This document shows, piece by piece, positions 17,747 through 58,238 of a stretch of 64,000 nucleotides of DNA. The DNA is from Candidatus Saccharimonadota bacterium (GTDB lineage Bacteria; Patescibacteriota; Saccharimonadia; CAILAD01; BJGX01): contig JACPPH010000002.1 of assembly GCA_016191105.1 (NCBI GenBank), positions 67,268 through 131,267 on the forward strand. The letters run 5' to 3'. A program made the position numbers and the translations under genes. Below the pieces are notes generated by a model. It was given only the letters and a program-made list of their open reading frames with translations. It made no database searches and had not been told where the DNA came from. How positions within the stretch are numbered: position 1 is the stretch's first letter; each line of letters opens with the position of its first letter.

Positions 17747-17821
17747 TGGGGCGTAGCCAAGTGGTAAGGCACCGGTTTTTGGTACCGGCATTCGCAGGTT
17801 CGATCCCTGCCGCCCCAGCCA
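17747..17821 (+). tRNA. tRNA-Gln (anticodon UUG)
   Basis: Cloverleaf with a 7-bp acceptor stem UGGGGCG/CGCCCCA and a U1:A72 pair typical of bacterial tRNA-Gln. D-loop 'AGTGGTAA', anticodon loop 'tt-TTG-gt', T-arm 'GGTTCGATCC', encoded CCA. Very similar to E. coli tRNA-Gln. Confidence 0.9.
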
Positions 17822-54714: not shown

Positions 54715-54971
54715 ACTATTCGATAATGCTAATGGTTAATTAAAAATTATGCAAGCACTTGAGGGCATACAAGCCTGTCCCGCATACGATGCTGCTGTAA
54801 TAACAGGATGGAATTCGTTTTACAGCAAATTGATGTGCGGCGATACAGCACTATATATGAATGTGTATATTTTTGTCAAATTAATGGCCTAAAATGCGAA
54901 CACCCCACAACGGGGCGGGATGTCCGCAGGTCGTGGGGCGTATGTTGGTGCGGCACGGTGTCGCGTGCTGG

Positions 54972-55523
54972 CTACTCGCCGGCTAGCTTGAGGCCTCGGC
55001 CCCCCAAGACGTAGACGATGGTGTCGATGTCTTCGTTGAGGAAGCCAAGGTTCAGCATGTCCTCGGAGGTGTGAGCTCGCAACTGATCGATGCTGCCGAT
55101 GCAGTTGTGGTGTAGCCGACGATGGACGACCCTGAGGGAGCTGTCCGGCACGCTTGGGTTGTCCTCGGCGCTGAACAGCTCGTCGATCTCGGCGAAGGCT
55201 TCGACGTAGACCACGGCGTTCAGGAAGTCGGCGTAGCGCTTAGCGATTGGTAGGCAGTCCGTGCCGGCCTGGAGTACGACCTCGGGGTCCTCGTGCTGGA
55301 CTCGAACCTCGAACCAGTCCAGTTGTACCTGGGCGAGACTGAAGCCTTCGATGTCGGCCAGTTCGTCGCGCAAGGCCTTGACCTTGTCGTTGAGCCGCGC
55401 CGTCTGACGCTCAGGGTCTTGGTAGATCCATGGCCGCCCAGAGTGAAGGCCGGGCTTGGTTTCGCTCAGCAGGCGCCAGAACGGGCCCGGGACCTGAAGC
55501 TTTGCTTCACTTTCTGTGTCCAT
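54972..55523 (-). CDS. hypothetical protein (high-GC islet between topA and dprA)
   Basis: About 62% GC, 183 aa, no recognised domain. Confidence 0.4.
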   Translation of the reverse strand: MDTESEAKLQVPGPFWRLLSETKPGLHSGRPWIYQDPERQTARLNDKVKALRDELADIEGFSLAQVQLDWFEVRVQHEDPEVVLQAGTDCLPIAKRYADFLNAVVYVEAFAEIDELFSAEDNPSVPDSSLRVVHRRLHHNCIGSIDQLRAHTSEDMLNLGFLNEDIDTIVYVLGGRGLKLAGE

Positions 55524-55689
55524 TCGCGGTCTCTCTTTCTTTGAGTAGTTGGTTTGATGGCGCGAATCTTGTACAGCGTACCATATAAGCGTTAAAAAGT
55601 CAATAGTTTGTCATCCTGAACTGTCTCAGAATTTCTAGATTCCGGATCCTGAGCATAGATTTCCGGTCCGGAATGACGCTATGGGCTAG

Positions 55690-56541
55690 CTACACAGCCA
55701 GCCACTGACCGGCACCCATGGAGCGGATTTTGCCGGTGATCTCCATAAGGCTTAGTATTGTGGCGACTTGGGCGGCCTCTAGCCCTGTAGTGTCTATAAG
55801 TTCAGCTGTGCTGCAGCTATGTTCGGCTAGAATATCGAGTATTTGAGCTTCCTCTTTGCTATCAGCTTTGACGGTCGGTTTTTTGAGCAAGCCACTTTGT
55901 AGGCCCAAAAGGTCTAGTACATCGGTAGCGTCGGTAATGGCATGGGCACCGTGCTTTATTAGATTATTAGGTCCGGCCGAACGTGGACTGGTAATGTTGC
56001 CGGGCACAGCAAACACATAGCGATTGTTGGTTAAAGCAAAATTAGCGGTTATGAGGGTGCCCGATTTGGCATCGGCCTCGGTAATAATTACCCCAAGAGA
56101 TATGCCTGCTAGTATGCGATTGCGAGCTGGAAAGTTAAACTTTTGGGTGGCTAATCCTGGCTCATATTCCGAGATAATGGCTCCGCCCTGCTCTAATATC
56201 TGCTCGCCAAGCTTTTGATTGCCAGCCGGATAAATACTATCAATGCTGTTGCCAAGCACGGCAATGGTCTTGCCCTTGGCATCGAGCGCAGCTTTGTGGG
56301 CTACGGCGTCGAGGCCATAAGCCAGACCACTAACAATGCAAAAGCCGGCCTTGGCTAGATCATGAGCAATTCTATAGGTTTGCTGGCGACCGTAATCACT
56401 GGGCTTGCGGGTGCCCACCACCGTAATCATTGGCAGTTCAGGGATTTGCCCACGTACATAGAGTTTTTTGGGCACGCTTGCAATATCACGCAAAAGTGGC
56501 GGAAAGTACTTGCTTTTATAATCTACTTCTTGTATATTCAT
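55690..56541 (-). CDS. dprA: DNA-processing protein DprA (Smf)
   Basis: 'ITVVGTRKPSDYGRQ', 'IVSGLAYGLDAVAHKAAL'. Confidence 0.85.
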   Translation of the reverse strand: MNIQEVDYKSKYFPPLLRDIASVPKKLYVRGQIPELPMITVVGTRKPSDYGRQQTYRIAHDLAKAGFCIVSGLAYGLDAVAHKAALDAKGKTIAVLGNSIDSIYPAGNQKLGEQILEQGGAIISEYEPGLATQKFNFPARNRILAGISLGVIITEADAKSGTLITANFALTNNRYVFAVPGNITSPRSAGPNNLIKHGAHAITDATDVLDLLGLQSGLLKKPTVKADSKEEAQILDILAEHSCSTAELIDTTGLEAAQVATILSLMEITGKIRSMGAGQWLAV

Positions 56542-56598
56542 ATTCTACCGCTAACCTGCATAGCATAAGCGTCATTAAATTTCTTGTGGTTAGAGCTA

Positions 56599-56627
56599 TT
56601 GACAAAGTAGTGCTTGTGTGATACCAT
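56599..56627 (+). promoter_or_regulatory. promoter TTGACA-N17-TGaTACCAT
   Basis: Consensus -35 box, 17-nt spacer, extended -10 box. Confidence 0.5.
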
Positions 56628-56633
56628 ACTTGC

Positions 56634-56850
56634 GATCTTGAAATCAGATATTTCCTTCGTAAAGGGAGTACTCTGCTACTCGAGAGTCAACCTAAAACTC
56701 ACCCTCCTTTTAGGTTCTCGGTAGCAGATTACTCCCTTTAATTGCCACGGTCTATAGAATAATTTTTGAGGCCGCAAAATCCCATTCGGGGGCATTAAAG
56801 GGTGTGTAAAACAGACTAGTTCGATTCGTACGGCTAGTCTGTTTTATTTT
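56634..56850 (+). ncRNA. candidate structured small RNA (about 215 nt) with an 80-nt nested hairpin and a strong intrinsic terminator
   Basis: The nested hairpin at 56660..56740 has about 32 bp paired: AAAGGGAGTA / CTGCTAC / CGAG / AACCTAAAA arms with a 'CUCACCCUCC' loop. The terminator has a 12-bp stem at 56808..56845 followed by T-rich sequence. No CDS fits. Confidence 0.4.
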
Positions 56851-57241
56851 GTGTTGTTTTTCATTTTTAAAAATACACACATAAATTACTCATGGCTGCA
56901 GATACTGCAGCGCAATATATTTACCATACCCCACTTTGTTAACAACATGCGAGCATGGAGCGTTTTTAAATTTTGATTTTGTTTGCGCCAGCGGCGCCAA
57001 GGTGCTACGATCGCTACATTTTTAGTATAAATTATAGCCGAACAAAAAGCAAACAGTTTATAGCAACAAATTCGAAGGAGCCCACAAAGTGAGTTCCTTC
57101 GTGAGCCAATCGATAGTCGGCTACCAGGGTGAGTTCGAGATCCAGCGACCGGTGGTGAACAAGGTGGTTTGCAAGCTATGGCAGTAGTGATACCATAGCC
57201 CCGAGCGGGCGTGGCTGGGCCGCCACAGCCGGCCGCACCAC

Positions 57242-57571
57242 CTACAAGGGCTGTTCACGCAGCTGGTCGAATCCGACGACGTTGGCGCATGGCTGTCCGT
57301 GGAACTGAACAATGGCTGACTCCTCTCCTGCTTGGGGGTATTCCCCGGCTTGGGTGTAGCGCACCAAGTTGGCGTTAAGGATGCTCTCTCCTAAAGACGG
57401 TTCGAGCTGTAGCTGACAATTGGGCTGCCACATCTTCTGAGTCTCCTCACCCTCGCAGGTTCTTACCTTCACACTGACCAGCACGTGCCCGGGGCTGGTG
57501 AGCATGACTGTGCAGAGCACGCCAGTGGTGAGTGGAAGGCAGTCAACTGCCTCGTGTACGGCCGCTTTCAT
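57242..57571 (-). CDS. hypothetical protein (high-GC islet)
   Basis: About 60% GC, 109 aa. Confidence 0.3.
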   Translation of the reverse strand: MKAAVHEAVDCLPLTTGVLCTVMLTSPGHVLVSVKVRTCEGEETQKMWQPNCQLQLEPSLGESILNANLVRYTQAGEYPQAGEESAIVQFHGQPCANVVGFDQLREQPL

Positions 57572-57680
57572 GAGTGCCTCCTGGTTGTTTGGTACGACTT
57601 CTTAACTAGCATAACTACCAGCAGGTAAAAAAATAAGTAATACGTTTTGACTCAACGCGGTTTGAGTGAAAAATATTTAA

Positions 57681-58238
57681 CTATAGCGAGCTAGAGGTGT
57701 GTTCCACGCCTTCGGCAAAAGCTTTTTTGATTAGCCCTTCGGTTTGGGCAATTACACCTGGTAGCTGTTCCTCTTCGGCCTGGCCAAAGCGTTGCAACAC
57801 ATAGTCGTGAGCGCCAATCTTGGCTAAATTATTGGTCTTAATACCGATTCGAAAACGCACAAAGCTCTCGCCAACTTTGTCGATAATGCTTTTAAGCCCA
57901 TTGTGGCCACCACTGCTGCCACCAATTCTTACCCTGACTTTGCCGAATTCCAGGTCTAGATCGTCAGAAACTACCCAAGTATCGGTATGGGTTAGTTTAT
58001 AAAAATGGCTTAGAGCTTGCACGGCCTGGCCAGAGTCGTTCATAAAGGTTGTTGGTTTAGCTAAAACAACTTTTTCGTCGCCGACTTGAAATTCAGAGAT
58101 TTCGGCCGAAAACTTAGAGCGCTCGTAGAATTCAAGCTCTTTTAGTTTGGCAATATGATCGACCACCATAAATCCCAGGTTGTGGCGAGTTTTGGCGTAT
58201 TCAGTTCCGGGGTTGCCGAGTCCGACGATTAATTTCAC
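57681..58238 (-). CDS. pth: peptidyl-tRNA hydrolase
   Basis: 'LIVGLGNPGTEYAKTRHNLGF'. Confidence 0.9.
   Translation of the reverse strand: MKLIVGLGNPGTEYAKTRHNLGFMVVDHIAKLKELEFYERSKFSAEISEFQVGDEKVVLAKPTTFMNDSGQAVQALSHFYKLTHTDTWVVSDDLDLEFGKVRVRIGGSSGGHNGLKSIIDKVGESFVRFRIGIKTNNLAKIGAHDYVLQRFGQAEEEQLPGVIAQTEGLIKKAFAEGVEHTSSSL

What the first reader, a model, noticed from the sequence alone, without database searches (positions are those of the whole stretch)
56599..56850. Stand-alone promoter, 80-nt nested hairpin and strong terminator: candidate novel structured sRNA between dprA and pth
TTGACA-N17-TGaTACCAT is followed by an almost perfectly paired hairpin at 56660-56740 (11+7+4+9 bp). Its loop and inner arm (CUCACCCUCCUUUU) mimic the 16S anti-SD sequence, and its outer arm (AAAGGGAG) is SD-like. 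The unit ends with a 12-bp-stem intrinsic terminator plus T-rich tail at 56808-56850. No CDS fits. I found none of the conserved motifs I know for SRP RNA, RNase P RNA or tmRNA, so it may be a 6S-like or uncharacterised regulatory RNA.
Basis: seen in the sequence. Interest (0 to 1): 0.55.

Follow-up and report, generated by a model that had tools for sequence, protein, structure and literature searches.

The report
New conserved small RNA in Saccharibacteria
The flagged interval is a real, previously undescribed gene for a ~215-nt structured RNA that sat between the same two genes in all 43 related Saccharibacteria loci examined and displays an unchanging C-rich loop resembling the ribosome's mRNA-docking sequence; this group has no validated small RNAs.

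Summary
Window 56599-56850 (+) holds a near-consensus promoter (TTGACA-17-TGn-TACCAT), a ~79-nt irregular hairpin, a second three-way-junction domain and an intrinsic terminator (fold z = -8).

It is a conserved RNA gene, not chance. All 18 loci found through DprA homologues alone carry it (DprA 55-71% identical where reported). So do 25 loci found by a DNA pattern. It always lies between pth and dprA, on the strand opposite to both.

The RNA core is more conserved (63-92% nt) than the flanking coding sequences. In the 16 protein-anchored sequences aligned, 31 of 44 base pairs show compensatory changes. G.U pairs outnumber A.C mismatches (51 vs 10), which fixes the RNA strand as window +. The only invariant unpaired run is the loop sequence CACCCUCC, which contains the anti-Shine-Dalgarno core CCUCC.

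No Rfam 15 family matches it. It has no conserved ORF and no downstream gene in its own orientation. It is not 6S-like.

The most likely mechanism is inferred, not shown: a trans-acting RNA whose C-rich loop pairs with G-rich (SD-like) sequences, as in RsaE/RoxS and 6C/B11. A protein-binding or rRNA-directed role is not excluded. No expression data or targets could be obtained here.

The parts
56599..56627 (+). Promoter of the RNA gene: -35 TTGACA (56599-56604), 17-nt spacer with TG at 56619-56620, -10 TACCAT (56622-56627).
   Evidence: One search gives a 10/12 match with TG. The same TTGACA-17-(TGn)-TAnnAT architecture was found by regex in 28 of the first 31 related loci plus the window and in 7 of the 9 loci examined. 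The sequences shown for L035, L038, L042 and L043 also carry TTGACA-type promoters. The -35 hexamer and several -10 positions are invariant in alignment A1.
56634..56660 (+). Predicted 5' end (transcription start about 56634 +/- 2, inferred from the -10 position) and a variable A/U-rich leader. The leader contains a pyrimidine patch (UCCUUC 56653-56658).
   Evidence: Leader length and sequence vary between homologues. In the minimum-free-energy fold the leader patch pairs with the 3' AAAGGG box. The transcription start is inferred, not measured.
56661..56739 (+). P1: long irregular hairpin. The 5' arm is 56661-56697 and the 3' arm 56708-56739. The basal 5 bp (AAAGG / CCUUU) compete with helix P2.
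   Evidence: Folds. Covariation: P1a, P1b and P1c are 91-94% paired, and the UCUGCU/AGCAGA helix covaries to UCGCC/GGCGA in the divergent clade.
56698..56707 (+). Apical 10-nt loop CUCACCCUCC. The invariant core CACCCUCC is at 56700-56707 and contains CCUCC, the anti-SD core. This is the proposed seed or recognition element.
   Evidence: It is the only invariant unpaired run in the 16-sequence protein-anchored alignment. It is unpaired in every fold. The loop reads UGCACCCUCC in the divergent clade.
56734..56802 (+). Second domain. P2 (CCCUUUAAU-GCC 56734-56746 with GGC-AUUAAAGGG 56791-56802) closes a three-way junction. P3 is CGGUCU 56748-56753 with AGGCCG 56769-56774. P4 is CCC 56781-56783 with GGG 56788-56790.
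   Evidence: RNAalifold. Pair counts: P2 99.2% paired with 6 covarying pairs, P3 95.8%, P4 91.7%. P2 is kept in all 16 protein-anchored sequences aligned, but P3/P4 are replaced by a single hairpin in L037 and L038.
56808..56850 (+). Intrinsic terminator: stem 56808-56819 with 56834-56845, an apical extension, and a U-rich tail. The A-tract before the stem makes it potentially bidirectional, so it may also serve convergent pth transcripts.
   Evidence: Every homologue tested has a hairpin plus U-tract at the same place, with clade-specific stems and U.G wobbles that would be A.C mismatches on the other strand. Sequence conservation stops here.
56562..56567 (-). Putative -10 (TATGCT on the - strand) of the divergent dprA promoter. 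It sits back-to-back with the RNA promoter. This is an inference.
   Evidence: A CATAAG box is conserved upstream of the RNA -35 in the main clade. In the divergent clade a CATA box lies just downstream of the RNA -10, and the RNA -35 abuts or overlaps the dprA start codon.

Best explanation
SHOWN. Window 56599-56850 (+) is an independent gene for a ~215-nt structured non-coding RNA (215-250 nt in relatives). It is conserved across Saccharibacteria (records named Saccharimonadales/Saccharimonadia). It always lies between pth and dprA and is transcribed opposite to both. Transcription starts at a near-consensus sigma-70 promoter with an extended -10 and ends at an intrinsic terminator.

The RNA folds into a long hairpin (P1) that presents an invariant C-rich loop sequence, CACCCUCC. 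A second helix (P2) follows, which in most lineages closes a three-way junction.

INFERRED. It most likely acts in trans as a base-pairing regulatory RNA. The exposed loop would be the seed that pairs with G-rich sequences (GGAGGGUG). These include or resemble Shine-Dalgarno sites, so pairing would occlude ribosome binding on a set of mRNAs. The stable hairpin and the P2 domain would give nuclease resistance and/or a protein-binding platform. The promoter sequence suggests high, largely constitutive expression.

In most lineages a 5' AAGGGAG box and a 3' AAAGGG box compete for the same CUCCCUUU strand. This may allow two conformers, but no function can be assigned to it.
For: Real gene.

- The promoter matches 10/12 plus TG. 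It was found by regex in 28 of the first 31 related loci plus the window and in 7 of 9 later loci. The sequences of the four remaining later loci also show TTGACA-type promoters.

- The terminator is conserved, with clade-specific compensated stems.

- Fold z = -8.4.

Conservation and synteny.

- All 18 loci fetched only through DprA homology carry the RNA, between pth and dprA and antisense to both.

- The 25 pattern-selected metagenome loci have the same arrangement.

- RNA core identity is 63-92% nt, against 60-71% for dprA and 53-74% for pth.

Structure.

- 94.7% of cells are paired and 20 pairs change on both sides. Slid controls give 38-51% paired, and 0/500 shuffles reach the observed value.

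- In the unbiased set 31 of 44 pairs covary.

Strand: 51 G.U cells against 10 A.C cells.

Seed-like loop: CACCCUCC is the only invariant unpaired run, and it sits in a 10-11-nt loop in every fold.

Not cis-regulatory: no gene lies downstream in the RNA's orientation.

Precedent: unpaired C-rich motifs of RsaE and 6C/B11 pair with target mRNAs and block translation (PMC9266662, PMC12395582).
Against: No expression data were available.

No target was identified. Matches in the window to the loop complement are at chance level (17 found, 12.2 expected). Predicted duplexes with the start regions of neighbouring genes are not conserved across loci.

Many genes in these genomes appear to have very short or no leaders. 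That would limit SD-directed control.

At ~215 nt, with a conserved three-way junction and near-invariant helix segments, the RNA is more elaborate than typical seed-type sRNAs. This would fit a protein-bound RNA equally well.

The strict linkage to one locus could point to a local (cis) role instead.
Confidence: 0.42

Rival explanations
1. Protein-binding or ribonucleoprotein RNA. The loop CACCCUCC mimics the single-stranded 3' tail of 16S rRNA (CACCUCC). It would bind or titrate a factor that recognises that tail, such as an Era-type KH protein, bS21/bS1, or a 16S 3'-end maturation or cleavage enzyme. P1 and the junction would be the protein platform.
For: The near-consensus promoter suggests abundant expression, as for housekeeping RNAs. 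Invariant or near-invariant nucleotides occur inside helices and at the junction (UCUGCU/AGCAGA, GCC-A-CGG, GGGGG), which is typical of protein-contacted RNAs. The neighbours der and pth are translation-related. Similarity to the anti-SD tail is seen directly in the sequence. The statement that Era binds GAUCACCUCC comes from my own knowledge.
Against: The supposedly protein-contacted helix sequence UCUGCU/AGCAGA covaries away in the divergent clade. The three-way junction is dispensable in L037 and L038. The loop has an extra C compared with the real 16S tail. No partner protein is linked to the locus.
Confidence: 0.25
2. Local (cis) function at the pth-dprA junction. A strong RNA promoter overlapping or abutting the dprA promoter would throttle dprA by promoter competition. 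The bidirectional terminator would insulate der-pth from dprA-topA. The RNA could also act as an antisense RNA on read-through pth-to-dprA transcripts.
For: The position and antisense orientation are the same in all 43 loci. In the divergent clade the RNA -35 lies 8 nt from, or overlaps, the dprA start codon. A conserved -10-like box for dprA lies at about RNA +5 to +15. The terminator has an A-tract/U-tract symmetry.
Against: Promoter competition or insulation does not need 150 nt of RNA secondary structure kept by compensatory changes, nor an invariant loop. G.U pairs on the + strand would be A.C mismatches in any complementary transcript. The RNA does not overlap either coding sequence. In the window and in L033 a ~800-1200-nt insertion separates it from pth without loss of the RNA.
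Confidence: 0.12
3. rRNA-directed RNA. The loop would pair with a complementary conserved rRNA segment (GGAGGGUG, as in E. coli 16S 537-544, recalled from memory) during ribosome assembly or hibernation.
For: The whole 10-nt loop of the divergent clade (UGCACCCUCC) is complementary to GGAGGGUGCA. I recall this as the E. coli 16S sequence at 537-546. The loop is invariant across deep divergence, which suits an invariant target.
Against: This could not be tested. No rRNA is present in the window or in the fetched loci that were scanned, and the Saccharibacteria 16S sequence at this site is not known to me. An 8-mer match somewhere in about 4.4 kb of rRNA has roughly a 7% chance expectation. That segment is base-paired in mature 16S.
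Confidence: 0.07
4. Ligand- or signal-sensing RNA (riboswitch-like). The junction would bind a ligand and shift the competition between the 5' AAGGGAG and 3' AAAGGG boxes. That would control terminator read-through into antisense pth/der, or exposure of a box.
For: Two mutually exclusive helices use the same CUCCCUUU strand. The Box2:Box3 helix is 100% pairable and the Box1:Box2 helix 86%. Their ensemble energies differ by 0.7-8 kcal/mol in 22 of 23 sequences; in L004 only the Box2:Box3 pairing can form. Junction nucleotides are conserved.
Against: No gene lies downstream in the RNA's orientation. No conserved antiterminator was found. The resemblance between the terminator arm and P1 occurs in one clade only. 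The 5' box and the junction are missing in parts of the family. No riboswitch family matches.
Confidence: 0.05
5. 6S-like RNA, or a divergent SRP RNA, RNase P RNA or tmRNA.
For: The size (~215 nt) and the strong promoter resemble those of housekeeping RNAs.
Against: No RF00013, SRP, RNase P or tmRNA match was found, even at E <= 10 on the region and E <= 5 on 12 homologue loci. ARAGORN finds no tmRNA. The covariation-supported structure is a 5' hairpin plus a junction plus a terminator. It is not a rod in which the 5' and 3' ends pair around a central bubble.
Confidence: 0.02

Closest known systems
RsaE/RoxS (Rfam RF01820) and other Staphylococcus/Bacillus sRNAs with unpaired UCCC / C-rich motifs
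   Same: It is an independent sRNA gene with its own promoter and an intrinsic terminator. A conserved unpaired C-rich motif is presented in a loop. [quoted passage not shown]
   Different: There is no sequence or covariance-model similarity. This RNA is about twice as long. It has one invariant 8-nt loop motif rather than repeated C-rich motifs, and it carries an extra P2/three-way-junction domain. Its targets are unknown.
6C / B11 sRNA of Actinobacteria (Rfam RF01066)
   Same: It is a deeply conserved sRNA of a whole lineage whose C-rich hairpin loops are the target-binding sites. The literature describes 6C target binding as chaperone-independent (PMC12395582 and reference 26 therein). Saccharibacteria, as far as I know, lack Hfq.
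   Different: No model match was found. 6C has loops with six or more C's. Here the loop is CACCCUCC, which contains the exact anti-SD core CCUCC. The overall architecture and genomic context also differ.
3' tail of 16S rRNA (anti-Shine-Dalgarno, ...GAUCACCUCCUUU)
   Same: The loop CACCCUCC(UUU) differs from CACCUCC(UUU) by one inserted C. It would pair with the same GGAGG-type sequences.
   Different: It is presented in a closed 10-nt hairpin loop of a small RNA rather than as a free 3' end in the 30S subunit. The trailing UUU is base-paired and is not conserved in the divergent clade.
raiA motif RNA (Rfam RF03072)
   Same: It is a ~200-nt, highly structured non-coding RNA of unknown biochemical function. 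By my recollection it keeps a fixed position next to a competence gene (comFC) in Firmicutes and Actinobacteria.
   Different: No covariance-model match was found even at permissive thresholds. The fold, the neighbouring genes (pth/dprA) and the orientation are different.

Membership tests
6S RNA (RF00013) | Match to the family covariance model. | tested here: not met
   No hit at the gathering threshold on the window. No hit at E <= 10 on 56400-57800 or at E <= 5 on 12 homologue loci.
6S RNA (RF00013) | Rod-like fold in which the 5' and 3' ends form a closing stem around a large central bubble. | tested here: not met
   The covariation-supported structure is a 5' hairpin, then P2 with its junction, then a terminator. 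No end-to-end closing stem is present.
SRP RNA / RNase P RNA / tmRNA | Match to Rfam models, or ARAGORN tmRNA detection. | tested here: not met
   Rfam; ARAGORN found only tRNA-Gln at 17747.
C-rich-loop trans-acting sRNAs (RsaE/RoxS RF01820; 6C RF01066) | Homology to the family model. | tested here: not met
   No hit. The RNA is therefore not a member of either family. Only a functional analogy is proposed.
C-rich-loop trans-acting sRNAs (functional class) | Conserved unpaired C-rich motif exposed in a hairpin loop. | tested here: met
   CACCCUCC is invariant and unpaired in all 16 protein-anchored sequences aligned and in the individual folds.
C-rich-loop trans-acting sRNAs (functional class) | Base-pairing with G-rich or SD regions of target mRNAs that represses translation. 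| not testable with these tools
   Only a 64-kb window and short loci were available. Scans gave chance-level or non-conserved sites.
Stand-alone bacterial sRNA gene | Own promoter and own Rho-independent terminator, no conserved ORF, and conservation confined to the unit. | tested here: met
   Promoter. Terminator. ORFs: plus indels in the alignments. Conservation limits.
Riboswitch / cis-regulatory 5' leader | A regulated gene immediately downstream on the same strand. | tested here: not met
   The RNA converges on the 3' end of pth in every locus. No co-oriented gene follows it.
cis-encoded antisense RNA | Overlap with a transcript from the opposite strand. | tested here: inconclusive
   It does not overlap the pth or dprA coding sequences. 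Whether pth read-through or dprA 5' UTR transcripts overlap it cannot be decided without RNA data. Promoter geometry in the divergent clade suggests at most adjacent transcription starts.
raiA motif RNA (RF03072) | Match to the family covariance model. | tested here: not met
   No hit.

The most novel reading that the evidence does not exclude
A lineage-wide, abundantly expressed anti-Shine-Dalgarno mimic. The RNA's invariant CACCCUCC loop would compete with 30S subunits for SD sequences, or conversely bind the ribosome or pre-rRNA. It would thereby act as a global translation or ribosome-biogenesis modulator in these ultra-small epibionts. Its activity might be gated by the two competing AAGGG boxes. 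It is also conceivable that it acts on the host bacterium's mRNAs. This would be a kind of global riboregulator not described in any bacterium.
Probability: 0.1. Interest if true: 0.85.

Novelty: new member of a known kind. Interest (0 to 1): 0.6.

Why it matters
Saccharibacteria and other CPR/Patescibacteria have about 1-Mb genomes and very few recognisable regulators. As late as 2022 TM7x was described as having no validated small RNAs (bioRxiv 10.1101/2022.03.25.485537).

An RNA held at one locus in every related locus examined, with a promoter close to consensus and an invariant loop containing the anti-SD core, is likely to be a central piece of their post-transcriptional or ribosome biology.

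It is directly testable. Some Saccharibacteria are now cultivable and genetically tractable by natural transformation (PMC10633639).

It also gives a covariance model that can be used to annotate an RNA gene currently left as an empty intergenic region in many assemblies.

Tried and rejected
1. Known RNA families. The whole window was scanned at Rfam gathering thresholds, the region at E <= 10, 12 homologue loci at E <= 5, and 15 larger loci at gathering. Only chance hits to miRNA hairpin models appeared. ARAGORN found only tRNA-Gln.

2. Repeated or mobile element. No second copy exists in the 64-kb window by repeat search. The covariance model also finds one copy per locus, plus a weak reverse-strand echo of the near-palindromic hairpin.

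3. Small protein. Only 36-42-aa ORFs overlap the unit, and homologues have indels in variable loops.

4. dprA leader or pth 3' UTR on the minus strand. Rejected because of the conserved + strand promoter, the U-tail, and 51 G.U against 10 A.C cells.

5. Antiterminator. The terminator 5' arm resembles the P1 3' arm (AGCAGAU) in the L001 clade, but not in the window, L005 or L012 clades.

6. Pseudoknot between the loop and the 3' AAAGGG box. Only 4-6 bp are possible. There is no covariation because both partners are invariant. An all-against-all column scan gave only phylogenetic noise.

7. Targets. The loop complement occurs in the window at chance level. Duplex scans of start regions in the window and in the neighbouring genes of 9-30 loci gave no conserved site. 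The 9-nt perfect complement at 57446-57454 (-) is within chance expectation.

8. rRNA pairing. This could not be tested because no rRNA was found in the sequence scanned.

9. Outer taxonomic limit. Protein-anchored sampling only reached DprA proteins at least ~53% identical to one of the queries. All of those had the RNA, so no negative lineage was found.

10. Literature. No paper describing this RNA or any Saccharibacteria sRNA was found.

Full report
**1. What is in the window**

The interval lies in a 1.14-kb gap between dprA (55690-56541, -) and pth (57681-58238, -). topA lies beyond dprA and der/engA beyond pth.

On the + strand there is a promoter-like site, TTGACA (56599-56604)-17 nt-TACCAT (56622-56627), with TG at 56619-56620. 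It matches 10 of 12 positions.

From the predicted start (~56634) to 56850 the sequence folds at -82.5 kcal/mol. Shuffles give -48.3 +/- 4.1, so z = -8.4.

The fold contains four parts.
- A long irregular hairpin at 56661-56739, with a 10-nt loop CUCACCCUCC.
- A second domain at 56734-56802.
- A 12-bp terminator stem at 56808-56845.
- A U-rich tail.

The consensus terminator scan missed the terminator, most likely because its apical part is longer than the scan's loop limit.

**2. It is conserved, and only the unit is conserved**

A genome-collection scan with the window's DprA returned six Saccharibacteria/Patescibacteria loci with DprA 59-64% identical. In all six, blastn aligns window 56596-56850 at 75-81% identity, and nothing else in the gap aligns.

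A metagenome scan with a DNA pattern taken from the hairpin gave 25 more loci. That pattern fixes part of the sequence, so invariance in those 25 loci is partly circular.

I therefore built an unbiased sample from DprA homologues only and fetched their contigs. All 18 protein-anchored loci contain the RNA according to a covariance model, at 31-162 bits.

In all 43 loci it lies between pth and dprA, on the strand opposite to both.

The RNA core is more conserved than the neighbouring coding sequences. It is 63-92% identical at the nucleotide level, against 60-71% for dprA and 53-74% for pth.

The promoter architecture TTGACA-17-(TGn)-TAnnAT was found by regex in 28 of the first 31 related loci plus the window and in 7 of the 9 loci examined. 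The sequences of L035, L038, L042 and L043 also show TTGACA-type promoters. Source names for some of the DprA proteins are Candidatus Saccharimonadales, Saccharimonadia, Saccharimonas and Saccharibacteria.

**3. Structure, covariation and strand**

On a model-based alignment of 24 distinct sequences, 94.7% of pair cells are standard pairs. Twenty of 44 pairs change on both sides. Sliding the partners by 1-3 columns drops pairing to 38-51%, and none of 500 shuffles reaches the observed values.

In the unbiased 16-sequence set, 31 of 44 pairs covary. This includes the helix UCUGCU/AGCAGA, which had looked invariant but becomes UCGCC/GGCGA or CUGCC/GGCGG in a divergent clade.

G.U/U.G cells (51) far outnumber A.C/C.A cells (10). 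Terminator stems also contain U.G wobbles. Selection therefore acts on an RNA read from the window + strand. It does not act on DNA or on the complementary transcript.

The supported helices are these.
- P1 (56661-56739), in three segments.
- P2 (56734-56746 with 56791-56802).
- P3 (56748-56753 with 56769-56774).
- P4 (56781-56783 with 56788-56790).
- The terminator.

P3 and P4 are replaced by a single hairpin in L037 and L038. The universal core is therefore P1 with its loop, then P2, then the terminator.

**4. What is invariant**

In the unbiased alignment the only invariant unpaired run is CACCCUCC (window 56700-56707). The two loop bases before it are CU in the main clade and UG in the divergent clade. 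The UUU after it belongs to the closing stem and varies.

CACCCUCC contains CCUCC. It differs from the 16S tail CACCUCC by one C; the 16S sequence is from my own knowledge.

The same strand can instead pair with a 3' AAAGGG box (56797-56802).
- The 3' alternative is pairable in 100% of cells.
- The 5' alternative is pairable in 86% of cells.
- Thermodynamically the 5' pairing is favoured by 0.7-8 kcal/mol in 22 of 23 sequences. In L004 only the 3' pairing can form.
- The 5' box is degenerate or absent in L004, L035 and L037-L041.

I record this as a possible conformational switch without assigned function.

**5. What it is not**

- No Rfam 15 family matches the region or its homologues, even at permissive thresholds. 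There is no tRNA or tmRNA here.
- It is not repeated in the window.
- It has no conserved ORF.
- It is not a 5' leader, because no co-oriented gene follows it.
- It does not have the 6S architecture.
- A conserved antiterminator or pseudoknot could not be supported.

**6. Relation to dprA**

In the main clade a conserved CATAAG box (TATGCT on the dprA strand, window 56562-56567) sits just upstream of the RNA -35. It is best read as the dprA -10. The two promoters would then be back-to-back.

In the divergent clade the RNA -35 is 8 nt from the dprA ATG, or overlaps it. A conserved CATA box falls at about RNA +5 to +15. This implies overlapping divergent promoters.

These readings are inferences from sequence. 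They make promoter competition with dprA plausible as a side effect or a secondary role. They cannot explain the conserved RNA fold.

**7. Mechanism**

The following are shown:
- an independent, conserved, structured RNA gene;
- an invariant exposed C-rich loop.

The following are inferred. The loop acts as a seed that pairs with G-rich, SD-like sequences (GGAGGGUG) in trans. This is how the unpaired C-rich motifs of RsaE/RoxS and 6C/B11 act (PMC9266662, PMC12395582). The rest of the molecule would provide stability or a protein platform.

I give this about 0.4. I could not find targets. Window matches are at chance level, and there are no conserved sites at neighbouring genes. Many genes here seem to have short leaders or none.

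The rivals are these:
- a protein-bound RNA that mimics the 16S 3' tail (0.25);
- a local cis role at the pth-dprA junction (0.12);
- pairing to rRNA (0.07; untestable here because no rRNA was found in the sequence scanned);
- a ligand-responsive switch (0.05);
- 6S, SRP, RNase P or tmRNA (0.02).

**8. Novelty**

No family in Rfam 15 and no paper in the searchable library describes it. A 2022 TM7x transcriptome study states that the organism has no validated small RNAs.

It is a new RNA family. Its kind, however, is familiar: a stand-alone bacterial small RNA with a conserved C-rich loop. I therefore class it as a new member of a known kind.

A less likely reading is more novel: a lineage-wide anti-SD mimic acting globally on translation or ribosome biogenesis. 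I give it a probability of about 0.1.

**9. Caveats**

- There are no expression data.
- E-values from the quickly calibrated model are rough, though the bit scores (31-162) and the syntenic position are unambiguous.
- The 25 pattern-derived loci are not independent evidence for loop invariance.
- The outer taxonomic limit of the family was not reached.
- The sequence of the 16S rRNA segment and the Era-binding site are recalled from memory and were not tested.

Noticed in passing
window 56948-56961 (+): A second conserved box, TGCGAGCATGGAGC, lies ~100 nt downstream of the RNA terminator. The exact pattern TGCKAGCATGKAGC occurs in 19 of 43 related loci. It is always in the RNA's orientation, between the terminator and the pth stop codon. 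It contains the palindrome TGCTAGCA and a TGn+TAGCAT motif resembling the -10 elements used by topA here. It could be an operator, a promoter or part of the pth 3' UTR.
   Followed up: partly
window 56990-57650; ORF 57242-57571 (-): A GC-rich (~58-60%) insertion of about 700 nt separates the RNA from pth. Most relatives have no such insertion. It encodes a 109-aa protein with no Pfam match. The protein is 47% identical to a 101-aa ORF at the same position in the closest relative, L033.
   Followed up: partly
window 54850-55600; ORF 54972-55523 (-): A second GC-rich island (~60%) lies between dprA and topA and holds a 183-aa ORF with no Pfam match. In other loci this gap holds between zero and three unrelated small ORFs or other genes, so it looks like a variable insertion slot.
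   Followed up: partly
window 54715-54760 (-) and equivalent sites in L001-L041: topA, and several other genes in related loci, have -10-like boxes (TAGCAT or TATAAT) only 7-12 nt upstream of the ATG and no SD. This suggests that leaderless or very short-leader mRNAs are common in these genomes.
   Followed up: no
L037 2440-2500, L038 2440-2500, L039-L041 (upstream of dprA): In the divergent clade the RNA's -35 hexamer lies 8 nt from the dprA start codon, and it overlaps the start codon in L038. The dprA promoter must therefore sit inside the 5' end of the RNA gene, giving overlapping divergent promoters.
   Followed up: partly
L037 2309-2428 and L038 2317-2437 (- strand): These homologues lack the P3/P4 three-way junction. 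P2 is capped by a single GC-rich hairpin, so the junction is not essential to the family.
   Followed up: yes
window 57446-57454 (-): GAGGGUGAG, a perfect 9-nt complement of the RNA loop, lies inside the 109-aa ORF of the adjacent insertion. By my estimate about three such 9-mers are expected by chance in the window, so I treat it as coincidence.
   Followed up: yes
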